From contig JAGAQY010000006.1 in assembly GCA_017622495.1 (NCBI GenBank), forward strand, positions 424 through 64,423: DNA of 64,000 nucleotides, written 5' to 3'. Under the pieces are notes generated by a model. It made no database searches. It was not told the DNA's origin and saw nothing but the letters and a program-made list of their open reading frames with translations. The DNA comes from Bacteroidaceae bacterium (GTDB taxonomy: Bacteria > Bacteroidota > Bacteroidia > Bacteroidales > Bacteroidaceae). This document shows, piece after piece, positions 15,767 to 60,710 of this stretch (its first letter is position 1; the number at the start of each line of letters is the position of its first letter). The position numbers and the translations under genes are program-made.

Positions 15767-15805
15767 ACCGGCAGCGATCTCGCATCGCTGCCGGTTCTCG
15801 TTTTT
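15767..15805 (+). terminator. rho-independent terminator of the kdu operon
   Basis: Perfect 12-bp stem ACCGGCAGCGAT / ATCGCTGCCGGT, loop CTCGC, then TCTCGTTTTT. Confidence 0.8.
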
Positions 15806-15850
15806 GCATCAATCTGAAAAGTCTTGTTTTTAGCTCATTTCTTTTTTGTT

Positions 15851-15945
15851 AAGTTTAGTTTAGTTTGGTCAGTTTAGTCTATTTTTAAAGTTTGGTCTGG
15901 TTTAGGTTTTTCGTGGTAATAGATTTTTAGTTTAGTTGTCGTTGG
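15851..15945. repeat. G/T-rich low-complexity tract built from GTTTAG / GTTTGGTC units
   Basis: The tract reads AAGTTTAGTTTAGTTTGGTCAGTTTAGTC...AAGTTTGGTCTGGTTTAGG...TTTAGTTTAGTTG. It is non-coding and lies between convergent genes. Confidence 0.6.
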
Positions 15946-15956
15946 TCCAATAGGTG

Positions 15957-16391: not shown

Positions 16392-16444
16392 AATGGTTCT
16401 TCTTTTTTTAGATTCAACGTTTTTGTTATTCATTATTTACACGA

Positions 16445-16452
16445 CAAAGGTA
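16445..16452 (-). promoter_or_regulatory. -7 promoter box (reverse complement TACCTTTG) for the PepSY-like gene
   Basis: The + strand reads CAAAGGTA, about 54 nt upstream of the ATG at 16391. Confidence 0.45.
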
Positions 16453-16542
16453 GAACCCGATTCTGAAAAGAATCTGAAAAAGATTTTTTTTTCTCATTTT
16501 TTTTCAGAGTCCCTTCAGTGTAGAGTCCTACCTATTGATAAC

Positions 16543-16568
16543 AGAGTTTAGTGTGTAGTGTTTAGAGT
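16543..16568. repeat. copy A of the GTGTAG/GTTTAGAG intergenic motif
   Basis: TAGTGTGTAGTGTTTAGAGT (16549-16568) is identical to 60719-60738. AGAGTTTAGTGTGTAG matches the reverse complement of 25315-25330. Confidence 0.7.
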
Positions 16569-16699
16569 GGCGACATTGTAGAAGGTAATTTATCTTTCGC
16601 CAAAAGCTGCTTCGCAGCATTTACTGGTGGGTGGTTGATGGTTACCCCGTAGTTTTGATTGCAAATTATTAATCATTAATTCAGCAAAGGTTATCGTTA

Positions 16700-17683: not shown

Positions 17684-17703
17684 ATATTATTATAATATGT
17701 TGT

Positions 17704-19131: not shown

Positions 19132-19186
19132 GTCGCGAAATTAATCAAAAAAATGAGGGTATATTGCATATTTCTCGTAAAATTGT

Positions 19187-19194
19187 ATAACTTT
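19187..19194 (+). promoter_or_regulatory. -7 promoter box (TAACTTTG) for the 1121-aa surface protein
   Basis: Matches TAnnTTTG, 58 nt upstream of the ATG at 19253. Confidence 0.45.
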
Positions 19195-19252
19195 GTATTT
19201 GAGATTATCGTGGAACTATTAGAACAGCATAATTTTTAACATCAATCATCGT

Positions 19253-46598: not shown

Positions 46599-47627
46599 TC
46601 AGTTTGCGATTCGCTTTATCAAGCGGTCTATTTTCCAGAGGATGCCTTTACGGCGGTGTTTCCAGAAGTATTTCATGTATAGTCGTTCGGCAATGCCCCT
46701 TATGCTGTTATGGTAGGCCTTGGCTTGTTGCCTCATGCGTTTCACATAGCGGCGTCCCCAGTATACACGATTGTAGCGTAGTGCATTCTCCTGTGGCTGG
46801 TCTATGATATGGCATATAAACTCTGTCAGCTGTTTGAGTTTAGCTTCTATGCTGTCCTCGTCAGGATGCTTCAGTGCTGGTGTAGCCAGCATGCGGTTAT
46901 ATAGCTCTGGATTACTGTCAATATGTTTGACGGTCTCCAGCACTTCGTCCCATGAGGTGTACTTGTTGCAGTTGATGAATGCATCCTCATTGAATGTTTC
47001 AGCTACTGCAGGGTCGCCCCAGTAGATGGGGACAGTCTGTGCAGCAAACGATTGCACCAGCTTTTCGGTACAGTAGCCGGGGTAGCTGCTGTTTTCGAAA
47101 GAGAAGCTGAACTTGTGCCCCTGTTCAAAGGCGAGTTTGTCTGCTACGGGGCCTCCGATATTGTTTCTATAACGTCCACCTGATGAGACGGGCTTATACT
47201 CCGACAACTGTTCGAAAAAGCGCTCACGTACCTCTGAGGCGCGGTCGTTGGAGTAGACGAAACTGCAGAAACCGCTCTTTTCGGGAACTGGTTTTTTGTG
47301 TTTCTCCTGCATCAGCCGAAAGTCTTTCTGGTATCTGTTGAGATAGTATATAGGTAATCTGAAGTATCTGTCGCCAAACTCCATGCGGTCAAACCCTATG
47401 GCATAGTCATAGAGGTTGAAGTCGGCACACTGGTTCTCGCCCGTGTAGAATATCTTCACACAGTCGTAGCGCAGATGCTCATCGCCAAAAACGGAGCAGA
47501 AGAGGTATTCTGGATTGTCAGAGAGTTCCACGTCGTAGTATTCGCTCAGGAGCTGGTAGAAGAGATTGTTCTCGGGCACGAAATCGTCCCAGAAGTCAAC
47601 AAACTTGATGCGGATATGCTTCTTCAT
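46599..47627 (-). CDS. GT10-family alpha-1,3/4-fucosyltransferase
   Basis: IKFVDFWDDF start, YTGEN, and the family motif FSFSFENSSYPGYCTEKL. An ATGA overlap links it to the upstream gene. Confidence 0.8.
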   Translation of the reverse strand: MKKHIRIKFVDFWDDFVPENNLFYQLLSEYYDVELSDNPEYLFCSVFGDEHLRYDCVKIFYTGENQCADFNLYDYAIGFDRMEFGDRYFRLPIYYLNRYQKDFRLMQEKHKKPVPEKSGFCSFVYSNDRASEVRERFFEQLSEYKPVSSGGRYRNNIGGPVADKLAFEQGHKFSFSFENSSYPGYCTEKLVQSFAAQTVPIYWGDPAVAETFNEDAFINCNKYTSWDEVLETVKHIDSNPELYNRMLATPALKHPDEDSIEAKLKQLTEFICHIIDQPQENALRYNRVYWGRRYVKRMRQQAKAYHNSIRGIAERLYMKYFWKHRRKGILWKIDRLIKRIAN

Positions 47628-48637
47628 AACTTCATTTTTGTTTTGTGTATATAGTAGGGCAGCACCTTGAATGCCAATCGTGGGTATTGGCGGACGAATG
47701 TATGCAGCAGGCGCAGCTTAAGGTCGGCATGGTAGTAAGCGTTTGCCTTGTAGTAAGGCACGTAGCTGAGCAGATGATTGTATATCTTGCATAGTGTGAG
47801 CTGCTGCGGTTGCTGCTCATTATAGATATAGGTGAGTATTCCCAGCAGATAGCCTTTCTTTAGGTATATATAGTCCAGTTCTGCTTGGTTGGCCTCGTAT
47901 AATCCATTTTCGCGGGCAAACTGCATGAGTAGGTCGAATGACTTGATTTTGTCTCGATAGCGGCTGGGATTGCGTGTTTCAGAGAGTGATTCCTCATGCA
48001 TGAGATAGTGGTACAGAGGCTTGTCGACACAAGCTATTTGGCGTGCTGCCAAGAGTGTGCAGGTGAGGAAATAGCTGTCTTCGGCACTGCGTGTGGCAGG
48101 GAAGGAGATGGCATATTCGTTAAGCAACGAGCGGCGATAGAGGAAGGAGACGAAGAGCGTGGTGTAATGGGTGAGGAAGAAGCAACGTTTCTCTCCACTA
48201 AATGCGCCACTTTCAATCACGGGATTATTCATCGGTTGAGTCTCAGCTCCCTTTACCAACTGTGCTTGGCAATAGGCAAGGTCGGCATCATACTGCCTGG
48301 CGGCAGTGTAGAGCTGCTCGCAGAAGTCGCGCTCTACCACGTCGTCACTATCAATAAATGCGATGTATTCTCCTTGGGCAGCTTCGATGCCTATATTGCG
48401 TGCTGGGCCAGGACCCATATTGTGCGGTGTGGCAAGGAAGCGGAATGTCTTATTGCCCGGGTGAGTGTCGACAAACCTCTGGGCACGCTCCATACTATCA
48501 TCGCGCCCATGATCATCGACAAGCAACACTTCAATATTGTCCAAGGTCTGCGCTACAATCGATGCCAGGCAGGCCTCGATATAGGGACCTGCATTGTAGA
48601 TGGGGATAATGATAGATATCTTGGGCATAGTCAGCAT
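47624..48637 (-). CDS. GT2-family glycosyltransferase
   Basis: ISIIIPIYNAGPYIEACL..., LLVDDHGRDDS, and a DSDD DxD motif. The start may instead be 48628. Confidence 0.85.
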   Translation of the reverse strand: MLTMPKISIIIPIYNAGPYIEACLASIVAQTLDNIEVLLVDDHGRDDSMERAQRFVDTHPGNKTFRFLATPHNMGPGPARNIGIEAAQGEYIAFIDSDDVVERDFCEQLYTAARQYDADLAYCQAQLVKGAETQPMNNPVIESGAFSGEKRCFFLTHYTTLFVSFLYRRSLLNEYAISFPATRSAEDSYFLTCTLLAARQIACVDKPLYHYLMHEESLSETRNPSRYRDKIKSFDLLMQFARENGLYEANQAELDYIYLKKGYLLGILTYIYNEQQPQQLTLCKIYNHLLSYVPYYKANAYYHADLKLRLLHTFVRQYPRLAFKVLPYYIHKTKMKL

Positions 48638-49590
48638 ACCATTCTATATATTTTGAGGCCGAGTGTCAGATTTGTATACATCAGCAATCCGCCTATCTGT
48701 AATTTTATGTTCTTTGCACTGCACATGCACTTGAGTAGGTGCCGGTTGTCGCGTATCATCTGTGTCAGTGTGGCAGCTTCCTCTTCGTTCACCGACTCGA
48801 TTGTGCGGAGTACGGTTCTCATGGCAAAACCTATCTGTGCATAGAAGCTGCGGCGGTATACCCCCGTCACATGGTGTTCATCCACAAAGGCATACAGCTT
48901 GTTCATTACGGTAAAGAGGTCAACTCCGTTCTTCAGCTTCAGTACGGCAGTGATGCTGCCGGAGTTTCCTTTGAAATAGTTGTAAGCCACCTTGTCGTAT
49001 GATGCACAATCCTTAGAGAGGTATAATACCTTCGGCTTGAACTCACTGTCTTCGTGGTATATTCCGGGGTGAAAAAACAGATGACGTTGCAGTAGTAAGG
49101 TGCGACGATATATCATGAAAGGTACGGCAGCGTGGTATTTGTTTCGTACGAACAACTCTCTGCAGGGCATGATACCATTGATGATGGCAAAGTGCTCGTC
49201 GCTTGGTGTACCGTCGGCATACACGTTTCTGTATTGCAATTGCAGTATATCTACATTGGTCTGTGCCAGACGCTCCAGAATCTCACTTATGCAGCCCTCC
49301 TCTATCCAGTCATCAGAGTCAACAAACCACACATACTCTCCCTTTGCCGCTTTCAGCCCGGCATTGCGTGCCATGCTCAAGCCCTGATTATCCTGATTGA
49401 TGACAGTGATATTTGTACATCCTTGTGTCATCTCCTCTACCACTTGCATGCTGTTGTCCTTGGTGCCGTCATTGACGATCACCAACTCATAGTCATCTGC
49501 TGTGACATTGGCTTGGGATAAGCAGCTCTGCAGGCAACGACCGATGTATTGCTCTACATTGTATACGGGGATGATGATGGAGAGTTTCAT
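48631..49590 (-). CDS. GT2-family glycosyltransferase
   Basis: MKLSIIIPVYNVEQYIGRCL, VIVNDGTKDNS and VDSDD. ATG 49590 forms an ATGA overlap with the LicD stop. The track ORF extends to 49608. Confidence 0.85.
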   Translation of the reverse strand: MKLSIIIPVYNVEQYIGRCLQSCLSQANVTADDYELVIVNDGTKDNSMQVVEEMTQGCTNITVINQDNQGLSMARNAGLKAAKGEYVWFVDSDDWIEEGCISEILERLAQTNVDILQLQYRNVYADGTPSDEHFAIINGIMPCRELFVRNKYHAAVPFMIYRRTLLLQRHLFFHPGIYHEDSEFKPKVLYLSKDCASYDKVAYNYFKGNSGSITAVLKLKNGVDLFTVMNKLYAFVDEHHVTGVYRRSFYAQIGFAMRTVLRTIESVNEEEAATLTQMIRDNRHLLKCMCSAKNIKLQIGGLLMYTNLTLGLKIYRMVC

Positions 49591-50378
49591 AGCGGTGTGT
49601 CGATCCATTTAATATTACCATGCACGGCTATCTCCTTGGGTAGTTGCATGTAGTCTCCAAACATCCTTGATAGATAGCTATGTGCACTCTTGGGAGCATA
49701 GAAGATGCTATCCTCGAAGGGTATCTCCACCAAGGGGAATATATCAGCTACACACCTCTCGGCCTTGTATATCATCCCGAAGGTATGATGATAGTTGCTT
49801 CCCTTATGGAATAGGGAAACATATCCTCTGAAAAGGGGGAATACGACACGCGTAAGGACTGCGTAGTTGAAGTTGTATAGCCAACGATGCTTGTACACCT
49901 TGTGGTGGCACAGGTTGACGTATAGTCTGTTGGCAATGCGATATAGCGCATACGGCGAGCGCTCCAGAGGGAATATGTCGATGAAGCATCCTTTGTGCTT
50001 CATCTCAAACGCAAAGCTCTCTTCGATGCATGAGTGCTTGTCGCGCACCTTGGCGTAGAGATGGGGATAGTCCTTATCGGTGCTTCTGTCTTGAAGCATG
50101 TACTGTTCGGGGAGTTCCTCGCGCAGTAGGGGCAACAGACGTAGATAGTCATCGCGCAGCATTTCGATGTCAAGGTCATCGTCCCAAGGAATGAATCCCC
50201 CATGGCGTACGGCCCCCAGCAGTGTGCCCGAGCTGAGCCAGTAGGGTATGTCGTGGGCACGGCAGATCTTATCCACCGCTTTCAGTATGTCGAGCATCCG
50301 TAGCTGCCCTCTACGCAGTAGCGAGCCGTCGGGACTGTATTTCTCGCGCAGTTCTTGCTGCACTTTTCGGTCTATCAT
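49587..50378 (-). CDS. licD: LicD-family phospho-substituent (phosphocholine-type) transferase
   Basis: LicD motif IPYWLSSGTLLGAVRHGGFIPWDDDLDIEM. ATG 50378 forms an ATGA overlap with the upstream stop. The track ORF extends to 50408. Confidence 0.8.
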   Translation of the reverse strand: MIDRKVQQELREKYSPDGSLLRRGQLRMLDILKAVDKICRAHDIPYWLSSGTLLGAVRHGGFIPWDDDLDIEMLRDDYLRLLPLLREELPEQYMLQDRSTDKDYPHLYAKVRDKHSCIEESFAFEMKHKGCFIDIFPLERSPYALYRIANRLYVNLCHHKVYKHRWLYNFNYAVLTRVVFPLFRGYVSLFHKGSNYHHTFGMIYKAERCVADIFPLVEIPFEDSIFYAPKSAHSYLSRMFGDYMQLPKEIAVHGNIKWIDTPL

Positions 50379-51340
50379 ATCCACCTCCTTTTCATCCTCT
50401 TCAGCCATTGCGTCATGGCTCTAATTCCTAAATATAGTCTGCTGAACATGGGATTGGCAAACCGCAGTGCAAAGCATTCCCACCATTGCCCCTTGTAGCC
50501 GTAATTGCGGATGTCCTCTATCACCTGCAGGTGTAGCTGAGTCTTTTCTCTGGTCTTGTGGTAATAATAGTGCCCTACAATCACGTGGTTCATCATCAGT
50601 ACATTGGCAATGCAGTAGGGCATGCACCTCTCGCGATAAGGCTCGGGAATCACACTTTTCTTGAAGTGATACGACCTGCCGAGATAGTCGAGCGTATAGT
50701 TGAACGTGTTCATGATACCCTCAGTGTTGTCGTTGTAGTGATATACCATTGTATGTGCTATGCGTATCTTCCTATCGCATGCAAAGGCCAGTCGGAGGTT
50801 CATGATGAAGTCCTCGCCCATTACAAAGTCGCGTGGGAGGTCGAATGTCTCTTCGTCGAACAACTCTCTTCTGAACAATTTGGCATAGGGCGATGAGGCT
50901 ATGCTATAGGCATATATCCGCTTGACGAGTTCCAACTTGTCCATCTCGCCATCGGCGTATTGCTTGGGATTACGGTCATAGTTCCCGATGATGATGTCAT
51001 ATTCCTCACCGGCCAAGGCATACAGGTCGTGTAGCGCTGTGGACGGCAGCGAGTCATCAGAGTCTACGAAGGTGATATATTCGCTTCCTGCCGATTCGCT
51101 TACGCCTAATGCTCGCGCCTTGTTGGCTCCGCCATTGGGGATATGGAATACACGCACGCGATGGTCATTTTCGGCGTATTCATCGCATATTTTCCCCGAA
51201 CTGTCGGGACTGCCATCATCGATGAGCAGCAGTTCGAAATCCTCGAATGTCTGTGCCAGAATACTGTCTACACAGCCATGCAAGAATCTCTCCGCCTTGT
51301 ATACGGGAACCACTACGGATATTTTCGGCGACTGCTTCAT
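50375..51340 (-). CDS. GT2-family glycosyltransferase
   Basis: ISVVVPVYKAERFLHGCV, LLIDDGSPDSS and VDSDD. Confidence 0.85.
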   Translation of the reverse strand: MKQSPKISVVVPVYKAERFLHGCVDSILAQTFEDFELLLIDDGSPDSSGKICDEYAENDHRVRVFHIPNGGANKARALGVSESAGSEYITFVDSDDSLPSTALHDLYALAGEEYDIIIGNYDRNPKQYADGEMDKLELVKRIYAYSIASSPYAKLFRRELFDEETFDLPRDFVMGEDFIMNLRLAFACDRKIRIAHTMVYHYNDNTEGIMNTFNYTLDYLGRSYHFKKSVIPEPYRERCMPYCIANVLMMNHVIVGHYYYHKTREKTQLHLQVIEDIRNYGYKGQWWECFALRFANPMFSRLYLGIRAMTQWLKRMKRRWI

Positions 51341-51463
51341 ACCTCTGTCTTCTATCTGTTGCCATGACTGTTCGTCTTGCGAAGATACAATATCCCCTCC
51401 AAGACTGCAAATTTTTCTTCGGAAAGTTTATACACGCTCTATGATTGCCATCAGTACCTGAGG

Positions 51464-51502
51464 ATCTCTATGGCGAAAGTTCATAAATCGGTTGGCAATG
51501 GC
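51464..51502. repeat. left arm of a roughly 40-bp imperfect inverted repeat
   Basis: ATCTCTATGGCGAAAGTTCATAAATCGGTTGGCAATGGC is the reverse complement of 51884-51924. There are 2 mismatches and 2 single-nt indels, and the 18-bp core is perfect. Confidence 0.85.
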
Positions 51503-51679
51503 TTGCTTTATATTGGCACAGCACAGCGAGGCAATGATAAGCTTCATGGACTGACCAAGTGCCTGGGCAGGTCTTAACCATCACCGAGCGAGAAGTCATC
51601 TTAAAGTGTTTTTTTATTGGAGGGAGCACAGATTCTTTTAACCCTCTGATTGTCTATACGGGACAAAGGGAAAAACTAC

Positions 51680-51761
51680 CGCCACCGCGGTGGCGTGATA
51701 GCGTCACCGCGGTGACAGAAAAGTGCCACCGCGGTGAAAACAAAACGCCACCGCGGTGGCG
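51680..51761. promoter_or_regulatory. array of four CACCGCGGTG palindromes phased at exactly 22 bp (candidate protein-binding array)
   Basis: CGCCACCGCGGTGGCG (51680-51695), GTCACCGCGGTGAC (51703-51716), CACCGCGGTG (51727-51736) and CGCCACCGCGGTGGCG (51746-51761). Dyad centres fall at 51687.5, 51709.5, 51731.5 and 51753.5. Confidence 0.6.
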
Positions 51762-51883
51762 GTGCAGTGAATGGCGGTTCGTCAGCAAACAGCGATGTGG
51801 AGAAACGAGCATAGAGGTGTATCTGTGGATAAAAAGGCGGCAAGAGTGAGGTTCCCGATACCTCGCTTATTTATGATGGCCTT

Positions 51884-51924
51884 GCCAATGCCAACCTATT
51901 TATGAACTTTCGCCAATAGGAGAT
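51884..51924. repeat. right arm of the inverted repeat
   Basis: GCCAATGCCAACCTATTTATGAACTTTCGCCAATAGGAGAT. A degenerate tandem half-copy (TATTTATGATGGCCTTGCCAAT) lies just inside it. Confidence 0.85.
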
Positions 51925-51966
51925 GCATTATGGATGCTGCGGCTCGGTGAGAACGGATAGATAGTA

Positions 51967-53100
51967 TTAATGCAGTGACTCCTGTAGGAATCGGAGGGCA
52001 TCTGTACGCCTTTCTTCAAGGATGCGGTATACCGGCTCGTAATCTATCGGGCAGAGTAGGGCCTTTTTATTTTGTTTGTAGTCTTCGTACGAGGTGACCA
52101 GCCGTCCCTCCAAGCCGAATACCTGCAACAGAGATTCAAAACGTGTCATTCCACGGCTTTTGTTGCCAATGACTACGAATGGTTTTCTATACAATATAGA
52201 GAATATACAAGCATGATAACTATCGGTAACCACGAACTCTGCATCACGGAATCCTTTCAACCATTGTTCAACAGGTGGCTGTATGCGCTCTTCCAATGTT
52301 GCTTTATGATCCTCGGTGCGCGAGTTCGTATGAAAAGGTTGTAATCCTTTCTCGCAGGCAATGTCATTGACCAATGCATCTTTTTCTTCACTCCTGTCGA
52401 GTACATAGCACATCATATTGCCTGGACTCGGCGGAGTATCTTCCCCAATCAGTCGAGTATAATCCTCTGCATTCAAGAGCAATGTAGGATCTATCATGCA
52501 CATGGCCTCTACGCCTAAGTACTTTTGACAAAGCCCGACACCAGACACCTCACGTACACTTATGGCATCGAACATACGAGCCATAGCAGCGACATTTGCC
52601 GTCTCTGCTTTATTGTATTCCCATTCGTCAGTGCCGAATGATGCCGCATATGCAAGGCGCTTGACATTCCAGCCTTCTGTAAATTTCAAGAAGGAGTTTT
52701 CGACCCCAGGAAATGGTCTGGCATAACGTGCACGCCATATCTGATCGCTTCCGACAACGAATGCGTCAAAATCCTGTACGCCAATCTCTGTCATGTTGCG
52801 TACCATCTTCCTGCTGATGTGCCGGCTGACGAACCTATTGGTGTGCATCGTACGTGCAGCCCATAGCTTCCTATAATAGGTGGGCGAATAGATGATGGCG
52901 TTCTTCCCCATCAAGCATCTTTTTATGGTACCTTTGACAAACATCTCTATCCGCCGCTTCAGCGAATATTCAAATTGCTTGTCCTCATCGATGACATATA
53001 CCTCATGCCCCATATCGTGCAATGTGTGCAGCAAGGCATACGACTGCAATATGCCACCATAGTTGGTTCCTAACGGAAGCGATAAGATGCCTATTCTCAT
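51967..53100 (-). CDS. polysaccharide pyruvyl transferase family protein
   Basis: The start MRIGILSLPLGTNYGGILQSYAL is typical of the family. VVTDSYHACIF motif present. Confidence 0.8.
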   Translation of the reverse strand: MRIGILSLPLGTNYGGILQSYALLHTLHDMGHEVYVIDEDKQFEYSLKRRIEMFVKGTIKRCLMGKNAIIYSPTYYRKLWAARTMHTNRFVSRHISRKMVRNMTEIGVQDFDAFVVGSDQIWRARYARPFPGVENSFLKFTEGWNVKRLAYAASFGTDEWEYNKAETANVAAMARMFDAISVREVSGVGLCQKYLGVEAMCMIDPTLLLNAEDYTRLIGEDTPPSPGNMMCYVLDRSEEKDALVNDIACEKGLQPFHTNSRTEDHKATLEERIQPPVEQWLKGFRDAEFVVTDSYHACIFSILYRKPFVVIGNKSRGMTRFESLLQVFGLEGRLVTSYEDYKQNKKALLCPIDYEPVYRILEERRTDALRFLQESLH

Positions 53101-53104
53101 ACCC

Positions 53105-54253
53105 TTACTTTCTTTTAAAAATGTCCAACAATGCCCATTTAACCTTCAGGTAAAGTATCAATAGCCTCGGCGGCCCAGCCTTCCGGCATATGGGCTCTAT
53201 GCATGCAATGCCTTTCAGGGGAAACTGTTGCCAAAACAGCTGCGAATATTCGCTTTCAGGAGGGTCCTGTACTATGCTCGGATTCTCGCATAGCGCATTT
53301 TCGAGTTTAGCCTCGGTATGCTCCTTTTCTATGGAATCGTACAAGGCCTGCCCTTTGTCACTATGGATGAGGACAAGACTTGTGCCCTTGTCGTCATCAA
53401 TCTGAGGATAATGTTTCTGTATACCCCAAAAGTCGCCTAATGTGATATCGCTACAACTCTTTCCTGAACGGGCAGGGCAAGCATGACATGAGGGACGCAA
53501 ATAAAGATCCTTAAGGAAGCCTTTCATGAAGACGTTGCCTGACGAAGGAGTATCGGTAGAGCCGGCATAGCGAATATGGAATCTATACTTCTTCCATCCG
53601 TATGTCTTGTCGCGAAACGAGATCCCAGCTATAGGGGATGTCTGCTTACGGCATATCTCAGAGAGATAGGTGTCCCACACCAGAGGACTGGAAACGCCAT
53701 GGCACACAATATCAACGGTCAACAAGTTGGCATACTCCTTGCGCAGATAACGCTTTAGCCCCGCGATTTGGCAGGGTGTACCAACAAAGAGCACCTTCTT
53801 CTCTTGGAGCAATAACTCTTTCGCCTCCTTGTACGTATCGCCTATTATGCTCTGAACATATTTTGACCCACGTAACATCGATAGTTCCTCCATGTTATTG
53901 ACGTGGGCATGCACTACATGCCAATGCTTGTCAAACCGTGCCCCAAATACGACACCGCCATCCTTTATCACAGCTTCAGCCAGGTGGGTAAATATCCCGC
54001 CCGACGAGCTCTGCATACGCACCTCTTCGTTTTTGCTCTTAGCAGCATATACACTCTGAGGTTGGCGACGGGCACCCTGATGTATTACTGGGCATACTCT
54101 CTCGCATAGTCCGCACTGCGTACAGGCTTCCTTATCTACAATCGGGTATAGAAATCCCTGCTCATCGGCCTTCATCGTGATGCAATGAACCGGGCATGCC
54201 GTAGCACACGCATGGCATCCACAACAATGCTTTTTGTCAATAATCTCAATCAT
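53105..54253 (-). CDS. coenzyme F420 hydrogenase/dehydrogenase beta-subunit-like Fe-S protein
   Basis: Two 4Fe-4S motifs (CCGCHACATACP, CTQCGLCERVCP). It is typically paired with a pyruvyl transferase in glycan loci. Confidence 0.8.
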   Translation of the reverse strand: MIEIIDKKHCCGCHACATACPVHCITMKADEQGFLYPIVDKEACTQCGLCERVCPVIHQGARRQPQSVYAAKSKNEEVRMQSSSGGIFTHLAEAVIKDGGVVFGARFDKHWHVVHAHVNNMEELSMLRGSKYVQSIIGDTYKEAKELLLQEKKVLFVGTPCQIAGLKRYLRKEYANLLTVDIVCHGVSSPLVWDTYLSEICRKQTSPIAGISFRDKTYGWKKYRFHIRYAGSTDTPSSGNVFMKGFLKDLYLRPSCHACPARSGKSCSDITLGDFWGIQKHYPQIDDDKGTSLVLIHSDKGQALYDSIEKEHTEAKLENALCENPSIVQDPPESEYSQLFWQQFPLKGIACIEPICRKAGPPRLLILYLKVKWALLDIFKRK

Positions 54254-55782
54254 CGCTTGCGGAGTTTTGAGATTACATTCACTATAGTGTTGCGCACCAA
54301 GGTGCGCTCTTCACACGTGCAGCCTACAAAATAGATTGCCGCAATGGAGGCACACACCGAAAGTGTACCCAGAATAATGACACGCAGGTATCCAGGGGGC
54401 ATCATGACATAGCAGATGGCAGGTACAATCAGTGACAGTATGGTGACTCCGATGACATTAAAGTATACTCTGATAATGAATTGTCTCACTGGGAAGTCAA
54501 TCATCTTTCTAAGAAACCATAGACGCGCAGCAAGGCACAACTGCGAAACGACAATGGCAACAACGACCGTCACTTCGGGGAATACTCCCCAGCGGAGCAA
54601 AAGATAGGAGATGGGAAGGTTTAGTAGAAGGATGCCACCTACTACTATTTGGTAGTCTCTAATCTTGCCAGTAGCATTTTGAGCCGTAATCAATGTATAT
54701 GAAACAATCTCGGCAAGGCTGAGCACCAATACTAAGCGCGTAAATAGCACTGAGTGTTCAGGAACCTCGCCTAACCACAAGGTAAGAAAGGCCTTCACCT
54801 CAAAGATGAGAGGTATGGAGAGTACCATGAATATGTAGTACGAGAGTTTAGTTCCTTGGAACATCAGTTTGTGCATGCGTTGTAGCTGCCCCGCAGCGTA
54901 ATCCTTGATGATTTGGGGGTTGAGTGCCATCGTGAAATTGCTGATAAACTGCATCACCATGCCGTTGACTTGCATGGCAATACCACGTGCTGCGTTGATG
55001 GCTGTATTGGTGAAAATATTGATGACCACATTTACCCCCTCGTTCTTCATCAGACCAGCGGTGTTGCCTATAAAGCTCCAGCCAGCAAAGCTGAAAATCT
55101 CCTTGAAGAGTTTCGTGTCGGTCACCCACTCATACGAGCATTCCTTGAAGTTGCGCTTACAGTAGCGCCAATAAATTATTTGTGATATGATCGCCGGCGT
55201 GATATTAAGAACCGATAACAATATCAACTTATCTCCACCATAGAAATAGACAGCACAGACAATAAGCAGTTTGGCCGTAGCATCAAATATCGTGAGGTAG
55301 GCAAAGGCCGACATACGCTCATGTGCGATTATCGCGGCCCTATATGGTACAGAGAGCAGATTGATAGCGAACGTCACGGTCGAGCACTGTAATACCCAAT
55401 TGGCAGCTACAAGGCGGTCGGCATCTATGTTCATCCTATTGTTGAGAAACCATACCCCTATTACTTCGATAGCCAATACTACAACTATAGCCAGCAAAAT
55501 ATGTATATTGATAGAGGTAGAGAAAATTACCCGTAGTCGCTTCATGTCCCCCTTACCCAGACCGAAAGTGAAGAAACGGCTTACGGCACCCGACAAGGAT
55601 GCCGACAACATGGAGAACATGGATACCAACCCTCCCACCACATTGTTGATGCCATAGTTGTTTACCCCTAATGCTTTCAGCATTACACGAGCTGTGATGA
55701 AGCCTATTGCCATCATCACCAGCATTCTCATGTAGAGGAAACCAGTATTCTTTACTATACGTTTGGTGTCAGAGTCGGGCAT
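54250..55782 (-). CDS. wzx: Wzx-type oligosaccharide flippase (MOP superfamily)
   Basis: 510 aa with 12 or more hydrophobic spans. The start (KNTGFLYMRMLVMMAIGFITARV) is typical of polysaccharide biosynthesis proteins. Confidence 0.85.
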   Translation of the reverse strand: MPDSDTKRIVKNTGFLYMRMLVMMAIGFITARVMLKALGVNNYGINNVVGGLVSMFSMLSASLSGAVSRFFTFGLGKGDMKRLRVIFSTSINIHILLAIVVVLAIEVIGVWFLNNRMNIDADRLVAANWVLQCSTVTFAINLLSVPYRAAIIAHERMSAFAYLTIFDATAKLLIVCAVYFYGGDKLILLSVLNITPAIISQIIYWRYCKRNFKECSYEWVTDTKLFKEIFSFAGWSFIGNTAGLMKNEGVNVVINIFTNTAINAARGIAMQVNGMVMQFISNFTMALNPQIIKDYAAGQLQRMHKLMFQGTKLSYYIFMVLSIPLIFEVKAFLTLWLGEVPEHSVLFTRLVLVLSLAEIVSYTLITAQNATGKIRDYQIVVGGILLLNLPISYLLLRWGVFPEVTVVVAIVVSQLCLAARLWFLRKMIDFPVRQFIIRVYFNVIGVTILSLIVPAICYVMMPPGYLRVIILGTLSVCASIAAIYFVGCTCEERTLVRNTIVNVISKLRKR

Positions 55783-55794
55783 ATGATATTGAGG

Positions 55795-56811
55795 TTATCT
55801 GTATGTTGTAATATTTACACCCCAATCGTACACCATATCTATCATAGGAATTGCCACTCCTTGTCGGTGAGCCTCCTGATAGATGTAGCGCAAGCCATAC
55901 ATGAAGTCTTCTTGAAAATAACGGCTATCAAGGTCAGGCTGCCATCCTTTGTCAGAGTGTATCATGGGGGTGGCTATTCCCTTAAAGCTATTGATAGAGC
56001 GTATCTTATGGGTCAGACTTACCGCATCTATACTTTCATAATAAGGCAATATGGGTGTCAGGAAGTCAGGAGCTACAGGTAACTTACCTAAGAGTGAAAA
56101 TAGTTCTCCATCCAGCGCAATCAATAATTTAGAAGCTTCATCAGTCCAATCTTCATAGAACAGGAATTGATGGTCATAATAAACTTCTTTATTCCAGTCC
56201 TTGAATAGAGTATACAGTCTCGATGGATGCAGTATAGGATTGCTATTGGTGAAACTCGCCTCGTAATAATTATTCAATAGACGTACGGGAGCATCAAAGA
56301 GTTCCTCTATAATGGTCCGAAAACCTTCCTTGTCTTCGCAACGCTCTATTGCTATGTTGTGACTATTCTTGTAACCCAGCAAATGGGCACTCTCTCCATA
56401 TACATTGGTGCGAGCAATAAAAGGCACCCGTTGGAACCCCCATAAGGGGACATCCCCTTCGAACAACTCCATAGCCTCAAAAAAGAAACCCGTAGAAGAG
56501 AATACCGAGCCTACGAAGGTGTGGCTATTCACGTAAGGCTTTATCTTGATGAGTTCGTTTTTGATGGCATAACCCGGCAGGCAAAGCAGTACAATATCAG
56601 TTCCACGCAAAGCCTCTTCGGGATTATTACTGATAATATGCAATTTCCCGTGTAGAGTGTCATCTTCCGGGGTGGATATATGAAGTTTTTGCTTCCACAG
56701 CTGCGGACGTTGGGTAAGGATGTTTACTTCAACCTCCTTCTTTGCACTCAGATAGCCAGCAATCACATGCCCCAGTGAGCCTCCTCCACAGATGCAGATT
56801 CTCTTCATCAC
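55795..56811 (-). CDS. NAD(P)-dependent opine (octopine/nopaline) dehydrogenase-like / glycerol-3-phosphate-dehydrogenase-like oxidoreductase
   Basis: N-terminal Rossmann motif ICICGGGSLGHVIAG. Overall length and C-terminal helical domain fit the family. Substrate is unknown. Confidence 0.6.
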   Translation of the reverse strand: MMKRICICGGGSLGHVIAGYLSAKKEVEVNILTQRPQLWKQKLHISTPEDDTLHGKLHIISNNPEEALRGTDIVLLCLPGYAIKNELIKIKPYVNSHTFVGSVFSSTGFFFEAMELFEGDVPLWGFQRVPFIARTNVYGESAHLLGYKNSHNIAIERCEDKEGFRTIIEELFDAPVRLLNNYYEASFTNSNPILHPSRLYTLFKDWNKEVYYDHQFLFYEDWTDEASKLLIALDGELFSLLGKLPVAPDFLTPILPYYESIDAVSLTHKIRSINSFKGIATPMIHSDKGWQPDLDSRYFQEDFMYGLRYIYQEAHRQGVAIPMIDMVYDWGVNITTYR

Positions 56812-58625
56812 GCCAATGCTTTTAGTGCTTCTACGAAATAGGCATTGTCGGCCCGGTCACGGATGGCGATGCGTATGTATTGCTTACCTGCAAAGGCTGA
56901 CTTGGTGCCGCAGTCCTTGATGAGGATGTTGCATCGCTTCAGCAGCAGTTGGGTCAGTTCGGTGGCAGTATATCTATCGGTCACCTCACAGAGAAAATAG
57001 TTGGCCTGTGAGGGTATTACACGTAAGTAGGGTACGGCTTGCAGTTCCTCGAAGAAGATGTTGCGCTCCTTGATGAACTTATGGCAGGCAACGGTGTAGT
57101 CTTTCTCATACTTACCGAAGATCTGCATATAAAATTCGGCAAATGAGTTGATGTTCCATATCGCCACCTCCTTCTTCATGCAGGCGATTAAGGTCTTGTC
57201 ACCTGAGGCCAATACGCCCAAGCGAAGGCCGGGTACACCGTATGACTTGCTGATGGACTTCACCACTACCAAGTTACTATGTGCTTCCAGTATATGATTA
57301 TGGAGTAGCGAGTTGTTGGCAAAGTCGTCTGTAAAGTCCACGAAGCTCTCATCTACTATCATCGTGATGCCTCGCTCGCGTGCCCACTCAATCAGCGGCA
57401 GCAGGTCGGCCATGGTGATGAAGTTGCCCGATGGGTTGTCGGGGTTGATAAGGAGCAGGGTAGAGATGGCCTTGTCGGCAAAGTAGGTCTTGATGTCCTG
57501 TGCTGTATAGGCAAAGTCGGCATTGCCGGGCATGTATCTGACAATACGCTCCGCGATGGCGCGGTTGGGGTATTCCTCGAAAGTGGGGAAGATGATGCCA
57601 ATATTTCCCTCCACGTGGTTCACCACATAACTCTTGATGAGTTCGGCAGCACCATTGCCCACGACCACATAATCCTGATTGATGCCAAAATACTTGCCTG
57701 CCAACAGGGAATTGACATACATGCCTGAGGGGTATTCGGTGAGCAGCACGTCGAAGTTGGCGCGAAGCTCATCCTTCATCCTTGGGCTGGGATAGTAGGG
57801 ATTTACCAAATAGCAGTAATCCTTCAGCTGTGGGAAACGCCAGTACCCACCATAACGGCGGTAATATTTACGTAACAGATGCTCATCCTCGGCAAACATT
57901 GCTTCGGCAATGTCAAGATCCTGCACATCATCTATCTCGTACCACTTCTCCGTGGTGATGGGCAGTGCCTTCAGATCAGAACGATCAAGAGCGGTGAGCA
58001 CACGCAGCACTTGCTCGTAGTACTCATTGTTGCCCATAGCCTTGCTGTAGGCCTCCAGGAAGGGTACGTATTGGGTACATGAGAACTCACGGCTAAACTT
58101 ATAGATGTTACACGTCTTGTAGTAGTGCTCTATATCGGCATACTTGAAAGCCTTCTTCGGGATAAAGCTCATGATGTCGTTATCCTCAGAGATGCGCACC
58201 ATAGTACCATCCATCCAGGTCTCGTACTTGGCCACAAGGGCTAGGTTGGGATAGGGGTTGTGTATGATGAGATCGAGCATGCTGTCGTCAAAAATGAGGT
58301 CCGACTCCAGCAGCAGCGTATCCTCCTCGAGCATATACTCCTTGGCCAGGGCCAGGGAGTATATGTTGTTGGTCTTGTCGTAGATGTCGTTGTGTACGTA
58401 CTCTATCTTGATACGGTCGTCATATCGGTTGCCGATATGGGCAATGAGCTCTTCCTTCTTGTATCCTACTACGATGACCACACGTGAAAGTTCCCGTGCA
58501 GCCAATTGTGTCAGCATACGATCGATGAGGCGTACTCCATTGACTGATACCATGCATTTGGTGTTCTCCTTGGTGAGTTCACCAAGACGCTTTCCCATAC
58601 CTGCGGCCAATATGATTGCTTGCAT
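56808..58625 (-). CDS. bifunctional fusion: LicC-like sugar/phospho-amine nucleotidyltransferase (N-terminal) plus class I/II PLP aminotransferase or decarboxylase (C-terminal)
   Basis: The N-terminus AIILAAGMGKRLGELTKENTKCMV is the NTP-transferase signature. The C-terminus has the PLP-lysine context VVKSISKSYGVPGLRLG, plus NPDNPSG. Confidence 0.75.
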   Translation of the reverse strand: MQAIILAAGMGKRLGELTKENTKCMVSVNGVRLIDRMLTQLAARELSRVVIVVGYKKEELIAHIGNRYDDRIKIEYVHNDIYDKTNNIYSLALAKEYMLEEDTLLLESDLIFDDSMLDLIIHNPYPNLALVAKYETWMDGTMVRISEDNDIMSFIPKKAFKYADIEHYYKTCNIYKFSREFSCTQYVPFLEAYSKAMGNNEYYEQVLRVLTALDRSDLKALPITTEKWYEIDDVQDLDIAEAMFAEDEHLLRKYYRRYGGYWRFPQLKDYCYLVNPYYPSPRMKDELRANFDVLLTEYPSGMYVNSLLAGKYFGINQDYVVVGNGAAELIKSYVVNHVEGNIGIIFPTFEEYPNRAIAERIVRYMPGNADFAYTAQDIKTYFADKAISTLLLINPDNPSGNFITMADLLPLIEWARERGITMIVDESFVDFTDDFANNSLLHNHILEAHSNLVVVKSISKSYGVPGLRLGVLASGDKTLIACMKKEVAIWNINSFAEFYMQIFGKYEKDYTVACHKFIKERNIFFEELQAVPYLRVIPSQANYFLCEVTDRYTATELTQLLLKRCNILIKDCGTKSAFAGKQYIRIAIRDRADNAYFVEALKALA

Positions 58626-58649
58626 AGTTTATGCCATTATAATACACTT

Positions 58650-60710
58650 TTACTTCACCTCGCTTCCGGGCTTCACCTCACGCAGGAGCGATGTCACTGC
58701 CAGCGAGCCGTCGTAGTTCTCGGCGCTGAGGATCATGCCCTCGCTCACGAGGCCGTTCTTGAACTGGCGGGGAGCGAAGTTGGCGATGAAGAGCACCTGC
58801 TTGCCTACGAGCTCCTCGGGAGCGTAGTGCTCGGCGATGCCGCTTACGATGGTGCGGTCGGCGAGTCCGTCGGCAATCTTGAACTTGAGCAGCTTCTTCA
58901 TCTTGGGCACGCGCTCACACTCGAGCACGGTGCCTACGCGGATGTCGAGCTTCTCCCAGTCCTCGAACGATACGGTGGGCTTCACGGGATTGGCCTTGTA
59001 GTTGGCCGCCTCGTTGGCCTTTTTGATATCCTCGAGGCGCTGCATCTGCGCGTCGATGGCGCTGTCTTCAATCTTCTCGAACAGGAGTTCGGCCTTGCCG
59101 AGCTGATGGCCTGCAGCGAGCAGGTCGGTGCTGCCGAGCTGGTTCCACTCAAACGTCTCCATGCCGAGCATGCCGCGCAGCTTCTCGCTGCTGAAGGGCA
59201 GGAAGGGCTCGAAGGCGATGGCGAGGTTGGCAGCGAGCTGCAACGACAGGTTGAGGATGGTGCCTACGCGCTCCATATCGGTCTTGGCCAGTTTCCAGGG
59301 CTCGGTGTCGGCCAAGTACTTATTGCCAATGCGGGCGAGGTTCATGGCCTCCTTCTGTGCCTCGCGGAACTTGAAGGTGTCGAGCAGCTTCTCCACCTCG
59401 GCCTTCACGTCCATAAATTCGGCAACGGTAGCCTTGTCATAGTCGGTGAGCGCGCCACATGCGGGCACCTTACCGTCGAAGTATTTGTGTGTGAGCACGA
59501 GGGCGCGGTTCACGAAGTTACCATATACGGCCACCAGCTCATTGTTGTTGCGTGCCTGGAAGTCGCGCCAGGTGAAGTTGTTGTCCTTGGTCTCGGGCGC
59601 ATTGGCCGTGAGCACATAGCGCAGTACGTCCTGCTTGCCGGGAAAGTCCACGAGATACTCGTGGAGCCAAACGGCCCAGTTGCGCGAGGTAGATATCTTG
59701 TCGTCTTCGAGGTTGAGGAACTCGTTGCTCGGCACGTTGTCGGGCATAACATAGCCGCCGTGTGCCTTCATCATGGTGGGGAAGATGATGCAGTGGAACA
59801 CGATGTTGTCCTTGCCGATGAAGTGCAGCAGGCGTGTGCCCTCATCTTGCCACCACTTCTCCCATGTGCCCCACTTCTCAGGCTCGTTGTCGCACAGCTC
59901 CTTGGTGTTGCTGATGTAGCCGATGGGCGCATCGAACCATACGTAGAGCACCTTGCCGTCGGCTCCCTCTACGGGCACGGGGATACCCCAGTCGAGGTCG
60001 CGCGTCATGGCACGGGGCTGCAGGTCCATGTCGAGCCAGCTCTTGCACTGGCCGTACACGTTGGGGCGCCACTCCTTGTGACCCTCCAGTATCCACTCCT
60101 TCAGCCACTGCTGGTATTCGTTGAGTGGAAGGTACCAGTTTTTGGTTTCCTTGAGCACAGGAGTCTCGCCCGTCTCCTTGGAGCGGGGGTTGATGAGCTC
60201 TGTGGGCTCGAGTGCACGTCCGCAGCCCTCCTCGCATTGGTTGCCGTAAGCCTGCTTGTGGCAGTAGGGGCACTCACCCACCACATCGCGGTCGGTGAGG
60301 AATTTCCCTGTTTTCTCATCGTAGAACTGCATTGTTGACTGCTCTACCAGTTTGCCCTCATCGTAGAGCTTTCGGAAGAAGTCCGATGCAAACTTATGAT
60401 GTACGTCCGATGTTGTACGGCTGTATACGTCGAACGAGATTCCGAACTCCTTGAAGCTCTCCTTGATGATATTGTGATAGCGGTCCACTACATCTTGCGG
60501 CGTGATGCCCTCCTTGCGGGCACGCTGGGTCACGGGCACTCCATGCTCGTCGGATCCTCCTACGAAGAGCACCTCCTCGCCTTTGAGGCGGAGGTAACGC
60601 ACGTAGATGTCGGCAGGCACGTATACGCCAGCCAAGTGACCGATATGTACAGGACCGTTGGCATAAGGAAGCGCCGAAGTGACGGTCGTTCTCTTGAATT
60701 TCTTTTCCAT
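58650..60710 (-). CDS. metG: methionine--tRNA ligase with C-terminal tRNA-binding (EMAP-like) domain
   Basis: [15 protein letters not shown] (HIGH), Zn knuckles CPYCH...CEEC, and a KISTS variant of KMSKS. The C-terminal OB-fold tail is [23 protein letters not shown]. Confidence 0.95.

What the first reader, a model, noticed from the sequence alone, without database searches (positions are those of the whole stretch)
55795..58625. Nucleotidyltransferase-PLP enzyme fusion plus opine-DH-like gene plus distal LicD: possible new phospho-amine or phosphonate glycan decoration
The first gene of the locus fuses two domains:
- A LicC-like NTP-transferase (AIILAAGMGKRLG).
- A class I/II PLP enzyme (KSISKSYGVPGLRLG), which is like histidinol-phosphate aminotransferase or threonine-phosphate decarboxylase.

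It overlaps by 4 nt an oxidoreductase of the opine-dehydrogenase or G3P-dehydrogenase type (ICICGGGSLGHVIAG). A LicD-family transferase lies further down at 49587-50378. No choline kinase or transporter (LicA/LicB) and no PEP mutase is in the window.

A plausible inferred route has four steps:
1. The dehydrogenase makes a keto-phosphate.
2. The PLP domain makes an amino-alcohol phosphate, or aminoethylphosphonate if Ppm/Ppd lie elsewhere.
3. The nucleotidyltransferase domain makes the CMP/CDP-activated form.
4. LicD transfers it to the glycan.

From memory, LicC-like/aminotransferase fusions have been linked to CMP-aminoethylphosphonate formation in Treponema. PLP enzymes making serinol phosphate or ethanolamine phosphate occur in Campylobacter capsule loci. 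I could not verify either point here. An opine-type reductive condensation, such as an N-carboxyethyl amino acid substituent, is another possibility.
Basis: inference. Interest (0 to 1): 0.6.

Follow-up and report, generated by a model that had tools for sequence, protein, structure and literature searches.

The report
Kinase-free phospho-opine head-group cassette
A gut Bacteroidaceae surface-sugar locus carries a widespread but biochemically untested gene set that most likely turns phosphoserine into CDP-ethanolamine, adds a carboxyalkyl ("opine") group to its nitrogen and hangs the product on a surface glycan; phosphonate chemistry is not involved.

Summary
Window 56808-58625 (-) encodes a 605-aa LicC-like nucleotidyltransferase fused to a class I/II PLP domain. 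It is translationally coupled to an Octopine_DH-family gene (55795-56811), with LicD further down the same locus.

- The PLP half is neither HisC nor the Treponema AEP transaminase. It belongs to one clade of fused enzymes that also holds an FrbH-type cytidylyltransferase/decarboxylase.
- FrbH's substrate is the C-P isostere of phosphoserine, so I predict Ser-P -> CDP-serine -> CDP-ethanolamine.
- The dehydrogenase keeps the opine-dehydrogenase His/Arg/Asp set.

Evidence from 83 related loci:
- The gene directly behind the fusion is Octopine_DH in 41 and the unrelated OCD/mu-crystallin family in about 21. The latter family also contains opine dehydrogenases.
- A same-genus relative has metG and the fusion 93% identical in DNA, yet carries OCD in place of this ODH.
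- Natural fusions exist: fusion+ODH, ODH+LicD and fusion+methyltransferase.
- LicD or a TagF-like transferase lies within the flanks of 68 of 83 loci.

The own genome (87% complete) has no PEP mutase and no choline kinase above the family's score cut-off.

No biochemistry exists for this cassette, and I found no paper describing it. This scan has noted the same cassette on other genomes.

The parts
56808..58625 (-). Bifunctional enzyme: LicC-like cytidylyltransferase domain (about residues 1-250) fused to a CobD/FrbH-like PLP decarboxylase-type domain (about residues 265-605, Schiff-base Lys460).
   Evidence: Pfam and NCBIfam. PDB matches: 6oux at 130 bits for the C-terminal half, 1jyk and 6pd1 for the N-terminal half only. 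Full-length 34% identity to the FrbH-like P0260. K460 is conserved in at least 90% of 48 diverse fusions.
55795..56811 (-). Opine-dehydrogenase-family NAD(P)H reductase, translationally coupled to the fusion. Predicted to N-carboxyalkylate the ethanolamine nitrogen.
   Evidence: Pfam Octopine_DH 92.8 bits. Pecten octopine dehydrogenase 3c7a matches at E 5e-25 over residues 4-331, with H195, R297 and D302 aligned to its His212, Arg324 and Asp329. Replaced in situ by an OCD_Mu_crystall gene in L004.
54250..55782 (-). 510-aa multi-pass membrane protein. Wzx-like flippase by size, position and relatives.
   Evidence: No Pfam hit. Homologous genes occupy the same place in relatives. The flippase gene at the corresponding locus position in L003 carries Polysacc_synt, though it was not tested for homology to this protein.
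53105..54253 (-). FrhB/FdhB-like Fe-S protein, partner of the pyruvyl transferase.
   Evidence: Pfam FrhB_FdhB_C/N plus Fer4.
51967..53100 (-). Polysaccharide pyruvyl transferase.
   Evidence: Pfam PS_pyruv_trans, E 2.4e-31.
50375..51340 (-). GT2 glycosyltransferase.
   Evidence: Pfam Glycos_transf_2.
49587..50408 (-). LicD-family phosphotransferase (likely start 50378, ATGA overlap with the GT2 gene). Predicted to move the phospho-head-group from the CDP donor to the glycan.
   Evidence: Pfam LicD, E 1.7e-42. The DDDLD motif is in the translation. The same GT2-LicD-GT2-GT2 block is 86% identical in L004, where no insertion separates it from the upstream genes.
46599..49608 (-). Two GT2 genes and a GT10 fucosyltransferase that complete the glycan locus.
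   Evidence: Pfam.
58650..60710 (-). metG. It is the upstream boundary of the locus, and only 24 nt separate its stop from the fusion's ATG.
   Evidence: Translation, sequence, and tRNA-synt_1g at the same place in L003.

Best explanation
The locus builds a Wzx-type surface glycan whose decoration is made by a four-activity cassette.

1. The N-terminal LicC-like domain of the fusion cytidylylates O-phospho-L-serine with CTP.
2. The C-terminal PLP domain decarboxylates the product, giving CDP-ethanolamine. This is FrbH logic, with phosphate in place of phosphonate. The order of steps 1 and 2 is inferred from FrbH and could be reversed.
3. The coupled opine-dehydrogenase-family enzyme condenses the primary amine with a 2-oxo acid (pyruvate is the default guess) and reduces the imine with NAD(P)H. 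The result is an N-(1-carboxyalkyl)ethanolamine head group. Whether it acts on the CDP conjugate or on free phosphoethanolamine is open.
4. LicD transfers the phospho-head-group to a sugar hydroxyl and releases CMP.

No kinase, transporter or C-P chemistry is needed, because phosphoserine is a central metabolite.

Shown here: domain identities, clade membership, gene coupling, partner exchange and natural fusions. Inferred: every substrate and product.
For: Domains and family membership:
- The fusion architecture is a large family, with more than 100 full-length clusters down to 31% identity.
- One member, P0260, sits in an FR-900098-type cluster: HMGL-like, aconitase, PEP mutase, DXR and Iso_dh. 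That cluster logic is described in PMC8942020. P0260 aligns with P0001 end to end at 34% identity, E 1e-111.
- FrbH is a proven N-terminal cytidylyltransferase plus C-terminal decarboxylase that cytidylylates 2-amino-4-phosphonobutyrate and then decarboxylates it (PMC8976061 and PMC6697681).
- That substrate is the CH2-for-O isostere of phosphoserine (chemistry, established knowledge).
- In a tree of PLP domains, all 48 fused domains, the FrbH-like one included, form one clade (SH-aLRT 98). HisC is separate (99).
- The best solved relative is 6oux. From memory, this is the phosphoserine decarboxylase SMUL_1544.

The reductase partner:
- Across 83 loci the gene immediately downstream is Octopine_DH in 41 and OCD_Mu_crystall in about 21. 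ODH is fused in frame in 2.
- In the own genus all 11 full-length fusions have such a partner: 9 ODH and 2 OCD. Thirteen of the 14 ODH or OCD hits lie directly behind a fusion or a stand-alone PLP gene; the fourteenth is at a contig edge.
- L004 is 93% identical in DNA through metG and the fusion. Homology stops at the fusion's stop codon, an OCD gene replaces the ODH gene, and homology then resumes.
- The partner type changes at least 26 times on the fusion tree.
- The OCD/CRYM superfamily contains tauropine and strombine dehydrogenases and enzymes that alkylaminate 2-oxo acids (PMC4141209 and PMC8446579).
- P0002 keeps residues aligned to the OcDH His/Arg/Asp set.

Link to the transferase:
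- ODH+LicD fusions occur in L029, L039 and L034.
- LicD or a TagF-like gene lies within the flanks of 68 of 83 loci.

Other evidence that the product carries a modifiable amine:
- Other family members carry a C-terminal SAM methyltransferase. They sit beside Glyphos_transf or CDP-OH_P_transf genes.

Chemical precedent:
- Opine-type substituents are known in Providencia O-antigens (PMC10609480).
- 2-[(R)-1-carboxyethylamino]ethyl phosphate occurs in Proteus mirabilis O14 (from memory, not checked here).
Against: - No enzyme of this clade outside FrbH has been assayed.
- P0260 is called FrbH-like from its gene context, not from identity to the published protein, which I could not fetch.
- The PLP domain scores below the curated cut-off for CobD (163 bits against 290.55). 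The CobD-like sister grouping is weak (SH-aLRT 57).
- Nothing distinguishes phosphoserine from phosphothreonine, or a decarboxylase from an unusual aminotransferase, at residue level.
- 18 of 83 loci have no reductase partner, so the reductase is optional tailoring.
- The 2-oxo acid and the stereochemistry are unknown.
- In this window, LicD lies 5.4 kb downstream of the ODH gene and behind an inserted repeat element.
- No glycan structure from any carrier is known to me.
Confidence: 0.5

Rival explanations
1. Same cassette logic, but the amino acid is O-phospho-L-threonine, the classical CobD substrate. The head group is then (R)-1-amino-2-propanol phosphate or its N-carboxyalkyl derivative.
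For: The best NCBIfam model is threonine-phosphate decarboxylase CobD. 1lc5 and 3fkd are among the PDB hits.
Against: No threonine kinase is in the locus. Phosphoserine is a central metabolite, and the FrbH substrate is unbranched. The top PDB hit is 6oux rather than Salmonella CobD. Methyltransferase-fused relatives suggest an ethanolamine-to-choline type series.
Confidence: 0.15
2. The dehydrogenase oxidises a polyol phosphate to a keto-phosphate. The PLP domain transaminates it to an amino-alcohol phosphate such as serinol phosphate. That product is then cytidylylated and transferred by LicD.
For: HisC scores nearly as well as CobD (141 against 163 bits). The N-terminal Rossmann part of P0002 weakly resembles G3P dehydrogenase and ketopantoate reductase. 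From memory, Campylobacter Cj1437 makes serinol phosphate from DHAP.
Against: The PLP domain is separate from HisC and groups with an FrbH-type decarboxylase. DHAP needs no dedicated dehydrogenase. The partner is an Octopine_DH member above the Pfam cut-off and has the opine catalytic residues. It is freely exchanged for OCD/mu-crystallin enzymes, which are C-N oxidoreductases, not alcohol dehydrogenases. 18 loci work without any such partner.
Confidence: 0.1
3. The reductase is not part of head-group synthesis. It makes or modifies another component, for example an opine-type amino acid that is amide-linked to a uronic acid. It merely travels with the fusion.
For: Opine amino acids amide-linked to sugars are known in Providencia O-antigens (PMC10609480). 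No direct evidence links the enzyme to ethanolamine.
Against: The genes are translationally coupled. In-frame fusions exist both to the PLP enzyme and to LicD. Adjacency holds in both directions within the genus. No amide ligase is present in the locus.
Confidence: 0.1
4. A phosphonate decoration (AEP or 3-aminopropylphosphonate), with Ppm and Ppd encoded elsewhere.
For: FrbH and PntC enzymes act on phosphonates.
Against: No PF13714 match exists in the own genome, while the same search hits 11 of 14 control genomes. The genome is only 87% complete, so absence is not absolute. The Bacteroidales loci examined show no Ppm next to the fusion.
Confidence: 0.03

Closest known systems
FrbH of FR-900098 biosynthesis (Streptomyces rubellomurinus)
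   Same: Same two-domain order: an N-terminal PF12804-type cytidylyltransferase and a C-terminal PLP decarboxylase. A context-assigned FrbH-like protein aligns over the full length at 34% identity and nests inside the same PLP clade. The amine of the product is tailored afterwards.
   Different: FrbH acts on a phosphonate in an antibiotic pathway with PEP mutase. Here there is no Ppm, and the setting is a glycan locus with LicD. The predicted substrate is the phosphate ester, and the tailoring enzyme is an opine-type reductase rather than an N-hydroxylase or N-acetyltransferase.
Lic phosphocholine pathway (LicA, LicB, LicC, LicD) of Streptococcus pneumoniae and Haemophilus
   Same: A LicC-like activation domain (1jyk hit) and a LicD transferase. 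A CDP-activated phospho-amino-alcohol is placed on a glycan.
   Different: There is no kinase and no transporter. The head group is made de novo by decarboxylation and is further N-modified.
CobD and SMUL_1544 (6oux), the threonine- or serine-phosphate decarboxylases of cobamide synthesis
   Same: They are the closest solved structures and the best NCBIfam model for the PLP half. Their substrates are phospho-amino acids.
   Different: They are stand-alone enzymes in cobamide pathways. P0001 scores below the CobD cut-off and is fused to a cytidylyltransferase.
Opine dehydrogenases: the Octopine_DH family (Pecten OcDH 3c7a; mollusc tauropine and alanopine dehydrogenases) and the sponge tauropine and strombine dehydrogenases of the OCD/CRYM family
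   Same: P0002 has the family domain and the aligned His/Arg/Asp residues. Two unrelated families with the same opine-forming chemistry alternate at this position. Taurine, the tauropine substrate, resembles phosphoethanolamine.
   Different: The known enzymes serve anaerobic redox balance, crown-gall opines or metallophores. None is known to tailor a glycan head group. P0002 is shorter (338 aa against 404 aa).
Tde1415 (PntC-AEPT fusion, 6pd1) of Treponema denticola
   Same: A LicC-like cytidylyltransferase fused to a PLP enzyme, next to LicD-like genes.
   Different: Its PLP half is a class V AEP transaminase. Only the N-terminal 150 residues match P0001. It also needs Ppm and Ppd.
2-[(R)-1-carboxyethylamino]ethyl phosphate of the Proteus mirabilis O14 antigen (chemical precedent, from memory)
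   Same: It is exactly the kind of head group predicted here.
   Different: I know of no genes assigned to it, and the Proteus gene-cluster paper does not mention it. It comes from a different phylum. The link is untested.

Membership tests
FrbH-type bifunctional cytidylyltransferase / PLP decarboxylase | N-terminal MobA/LicC-like NTP-transferase domain with a GxGxR loop | tested here: met
   PF00483 and PF12804 over their cut-offs at residues 3-134. G9, G11, R13 and K23 are nearly invariant in 48 fusions.
FrbH-type bifunctional cytidylyltransferase / PLP decarboxylase | C-terminal class I/II PLP domain with a Schiff-base lysine, in the same clade as an FrbH orthologue | tested here: met
   PF00155, E 3.5e-30. 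K460 is conserved. The fused clade has SH-aLRT 98 and contains the FrbH-like P0260. Caveat: P0260 is assigned from its gene context.
FrbH-type bifunctional cytidylyltransferase / PLP decarboxylase | Phosphonate pathway context (PEP mutase) | tested here: not met
   No PF13714 match in the own genome. It works like FrbH but is not a phosphonate-pathway member.
FrbH-type bifunctional cytidylyltransferase / PLP decarboxylase | Cytidylylation followed by decarboxylation of the CMP conjugate | not testable with these tools
   Needs an enzyme assay.
CobD (TIGR01140, threonine-phosphate decarboxylase equivalog) | Score above the curated cut-off | tested here: not met
   162.9 bits against a cut-off of 290.55.
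HisC (TIGR01141) | Score above the curated cut-off, and clustering with genuine HisC | tested here: not met
   141.4 bits against a cut-off of 276.55. The own genome's true HisC scores 323 bits. HisC forms a separate clade with support 99.
PntC-AEPT fusion (Tde1415 type) | C-terminal class V AEP transaminase | tested here: not met
   6pd1 matches only residues 2-149 of P0001.
Lic phosphocholine system | LicC-like cytidylyltransferase and LicD transferase | tested here: met
Lic phosphocholine system | LicA choline kinase and LicB transporter | tested here: not met
   None in the window. The genome's best PF01633 match scores 18.7 bits, below the cut-off.
Opine dehydrogenase (PF02317) | Octopine_DH helical domain above the gathering score | tested here: met
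   92.8 bits against a cut-off of 30.
Opine dehydrogenase (PF02317) | Catalytic His-Asp pair and the carboxylate-binding Arg of OcDH | tested here: met
   H195, R297 and D302 align with residues 212, 324 and 329 of 3c7a. The roles of those residues are recalled from the OcDH literature.
Opine dehydrogenase (PF02317) | NAD(P)H-dependent reductive condensation of an amine with a 2-oxo acid | not testable with these tools
   Needs an enzyme assay.

The most novel reading that the evidence does not exclude
The fusion family is the missing kinase-free bacterial route from phosphoserine to CDP-ethanolamine. Swappable N-tailoring modules then turn that one donor into a palette of surface head groups:
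- Octopine_DH and OCD/mu-crystallin enzymes giving carboxyalkyl (opine) groups, possibly with opposite stereochemistry.
- SAM methyltransferases giving de novo phosphocholine.

On this reading, replacing a single gene between conserved flanks, as between this window and L004, re-types the glycan epitope and its charge in gut Bacteroidales.
Probability: 0.3. Interest if true: 0.75.

Novelty: new variant of a known kind. Interest (0 to 1): 0.62.

Why it matters
Charged small head groups on capsules and other surface glycans govern immune recognition, phage adsorption and colonisation by gut Bacteroidales. If the prediction holds, three things follow:
- Hundreds of gut and rumen species carry a so far unrecognised phospho-opine decoration.
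- Bacteria have a kinase-independent way to make CDP-ethanolamine, and with methyltransferase fusions perhaps CDP-choline, from a central metabolite.
- Opine dehydrogenases gain a new physiological role.

It would also supply candidate genes for the chemically known carboxyethyl-aminoethyl phosphate of Proteus O-antigen.

The cassette occurs in cultured strains, so it is directly testable: Hoylesella timonensis DSM 22865, Xylanibacter ruminicola KHT3 and Bacteroides sp. 224.

Tried and rejected
- Phosphonate reading: rejected, because PEP mutase is absent from the genome.
- Treponema PntC-AEPT parallel: rejected, because only the N-terminal half matches.
- Literature searches found nothing on this cassette. 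The queries were opine dehydrogenase with capsule and cytidylyltransferase; serine- or threonine-phosphate decarboxylase with LicD; phosphoethanolamine methyltransferase with LicD; and carboxyethylamino head groups.
- The Proteus O-antigen gene-cluster paper says nothing about the O14 head group.
- The original FrbH paper is not held. FrbH properties are therefore cited second-hand, and the FrbH sequence itself was not compared.
- Cluster look-up of high-GC relatives gave only generic names.
- An order-wide sample (one genome per family) was too sparse to be informative. Only 5 of 151 genomes have an ODH homologue. The two closer ones sit next to a fusion; the two at 29% identity do not.
- I could not separate decarboxylase from aminotransferase, or Ser-P from Thr-P, at residue level.
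- No structure prediction or complex prediction was run. Neither would settle substrate identity.
Full report
**What is there**

On the minus strand, directly behind metG (58650-60710), lies a co-directional glycan locus:
- the 605-aa fusion P0001 (56808-58625)
- an Octopine_DH-family protein P0002 (55795-56811)
- a 510-aa multi-pass membrane protein (54250-55782, no Pfam hit)
- an FrhB-like Fe-S protein (53105-54253)
- a pyruvyl transferase (51967-53100)
- then GT2, LicD (49587-50408), GT2, GT2 and a GT10 fucosyltransferase (down to 46599)

The quoted motifs are all present. The fusion-ODH junction reads GCG TGA TGA AG, which gives a 4-nt (GTG start) or 1-nt (ATG start) overlap. Only 24 nt separate the metG stop from the fusion's ATG.

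**The fusion**

- Pfam finds NTP_transferase/NTP_transf_3 at residues 3-134 and Aminotran_1_2 at residues 311-601.
- NCBIfam ranks CobD (163 bits) ahead of HisC (141 bits). Both are below their cut-offs.
- Against the PDB, the C-terminal half matches 6oux best (131 bits), then 3ftb, Salmonella CobD 1lc5 and a plant HisC. The N-terminal half matches LicC 1jyk and Tde1415 6pd1.
- Tde1415's PLP half is an AEP transaminase of another class and does not match.

**A characterised relative of the whole architecture**

- Rice et al. and Chu et al. describe FrbH as an N-terminal cytidylyltransferase plus a C-terminal decarboxylase. It first cytidylylates 2-amino-4-phosphonobutyrate and then decarboxylates the conjugate.
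- An exhaustive representative search shows the architecture is a large family. The best 150 hits are mostly proteins of about 600 aa aligned end to end, down to 31% identity.
- One of them, P0260, lies between aconitase, HMGL-like and flavoprotein genes on one side and PEP mutase, DXP reductoisomerase and isocitrate-dehydrogenase-like genes on the other. This is the FR-900098 cluster logic described in PMC8942020.
- P0260 aligns with P0001 over residues 2-604 at 34% identity, E 1e-111.
- I built a tree of PLP domains with HisC, CobD-like and outgroup aminotransferases taken from related genomes. All 48 fused domains, P0260 included, form one clade (SH-aLRT 98). HisC is separate (99). Two CobD-like stand-alone proteins are the weakly supported sister group (57).
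- 2-Amino-4-phosphonobutyrate is O-phosphoserine with CH2 in place of the bridging oxygen. Its decarboxylation product is likewise the isostere of phosphoethanolamine. The direct translation of FrbH chemistry to a genome without PEP mutase is therefore Ser-P -> CDP-serine -> CDP-ethanolamine.

**The reductase**

- P0002 is an Octopine_DH-family member: 92.8 bits against a cut-off of 30, while the G3P-dehydrogenase N-terminal model stays below its cut-off.
- It aligns over its full length with Pecten octopine dehydrogenase. H195, R297 and D302 sit at the positions of His212, Arg324 and Asp329. The roles of those residues are from memory.
- A PLP enzyme needs a free alpha-amine, so N-alkylation can only follow the PLP step.

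**Comparative evidence**

I fetched 80 species-level loci and 3 metagenome loci and scored their ORFs with reference proteins.

| Gene immediately downstream of the fusion | Loci |
|---|---|
| Octopine_DH | 41 |
| OCD_Mu_crystall | about 21 |
| ODH fused in frame to the fusion (L035, L043; 946 aa) | 2 |
| ODH elsewhere in the locus | 1 |
| No reductase | 18 |

- Several of the 18 loci without a reductase have a divergent LicD directly flanking the fusion.
- LicD or a TagF-like transferase lies within the flanks of 68 of 83 loci, and within 3 kb in 64.
- ODH+LicD single proteins exist in L029, L039 and L034.
- In the window's own genus, 11 of 31 species genomes carry a full-length fusion. All 11 have a partner directly downstream: 9 ODH and 2 OCD. 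Thirteen of the 14 ODH or OCD hits sit behind a fusion or a stand-alone PLP homologue, and the fourteenth lies at a contig edge.
- The sharpest case is L004, which is genome G003 of the same genus.
  - Its DNA is 93% identical to the window from metG through the fusion.
  - Homology ends at the fusion's stop codon, and a 315-aa OCD_Mu_crystall gene stands where the ODH gene is.
  - Homology then resumes at the membrane protein (72%), the pyruvyl transferase (67%) and the GT2-LicD-GT2-GT2 block (86%).
- On a tree of the fusions the partner label changes at least 26 times. OCD is as scattered as in random shuffles.
- The OCD/CRYM superfamily includes the sponge tauropine and strombine dehydrogenases and enzymes that alkylaminate 2-oxo acids. 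The two interchangeable families therefore share exactly opine-forming chemistry.

**Further support that the product carries a modifiable amine on a CDP-alcohol**

- Some relatives carry a third, C-terminal SAM-methyltransferase domain (P0135, P0136, P0241, P0282).
- One relative has a Glyphos_transf domain fused to the PLP domain (P0247).
- The methyltransferase-fused genes sit beside Glyphos_transf, a second methyltransferase or a CDP-OH_P_transf gene.

**Mechanism and its limits**

Best reading, about 0.5 for the whole chain:
1. The fusion makes CDP-ethanolamine from phosphoserine.
2. The ODH adds a 1-carboxyalkyl group to the nitrogen.
3. LicD transfers the phospho-head-group to the glycan.

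Open points:
- Ser-P versus Thr-P.
- The order of the cytidylylation and decarboxylation steps.
- Whether the reductase acts on the CDP conjugate.
- Which 2-oxo acid is used, and the stereochemistry of the product.

Opine-type substituents are chemically known in Providencia O-antigens. From memory, 2-[(R)-1-carboxyethylamino]ethyl phosphate occurs in Proteus mirabilis O14. I found no genes assigned to either.

**Novelty**

- My literature searches found no description of this cassette. NCBI names the protein only as a class I/II aminotransferase-fold enzyme.
- This scan has already noted the same cassette on other genomes with the same reading. I arrived at FrbH before reading those notes.
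  - the in-situ ODH-to-OCD replacement
  - the genus-level two-way coupling
  - the switch count on the fusion tree
  - the nesting of a context-assigned FrbH-like protein inside the fused PLP clade
- I class it as a new variant of known kinds: Lic-type head-group decoration, FrbH-type activation and opine dehydrogenases.

Noticed in passing
window 58626-58649: Only 24 nt separate the metG stop from the fusion's start codon. The glycan locus therefore has no room for its own promoter between them and may be read through from metG or from a promoter inside it. The same metG-fusion junction is kept in L003 and L004.
   Followed up: partly
window 51341-51966, compared with L004:12911-13036: The window has a 627-nt gap between the pyruvyl-transferase gene and the GT2 gene. 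Earlier notes place an inverted-repeat element there. The gap is about 125 nt in the otherwise collinear L004. The two halves of the locus were therefore contiguous, and the insertion is recent.
   Followed up: partly
window 51967-54253: An FrhB/FdhB-like Fe-S protein is paired with a polysaccharide pyruvyl transferase. The role of the Fe-S protein in pyruvylation is not explained.
   Followed up: no
L095 (soil metagenome contig, about 4700-21800): An FR-900098-like phosphonate cluster. It contains HMGL-like, aconitase large and small subunits, a flavoprotein, an FrbH-like fusion, PEP mutase, a DXP reductoisomerase copy, YgbB, a carrier protein, an adenylating enzyme, a class III aminotransferase and an Iso_dh. 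The additions suggest a modified product.
   Followed up: no
G170:C38:41350-42432, G175:C11:7925-9010, G005:C140:18384-19475: Three species of the same genus carry a stand-alone PLP homologue (368-401 aa ORFs, 52-53% identical to residues about 240-605 of the fusion). Two of them have an OCD gene directly downstream. I did not look for the cytidylyltransferase half.
   Followed up: no
L070:10001-15500: One locus seems to carry both an OCD and an ODH gene behind the fusion, followed by LicD.
   Followed up: no
L013:8412-9941 and L015, same position: An IspD-like cytidylyltransferase fused to LicD lies directly upstream of the fusion in loci that lack a reductase. This suggests a second CDP-alcohol head group in the same locus.
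   Followed up: no
L006:4811-5428: A GNAT acetyltransferase lies directly upstream of a fusion that has no reductase partner. It could be an N-acetyl tailoring variant, by analogy with FrbF.
   Followed up: no
G000:C50:14781-15410: A second LicD gene lies elsewhere in the own genome. I did not look for its donor pathway.
   Followed up: no
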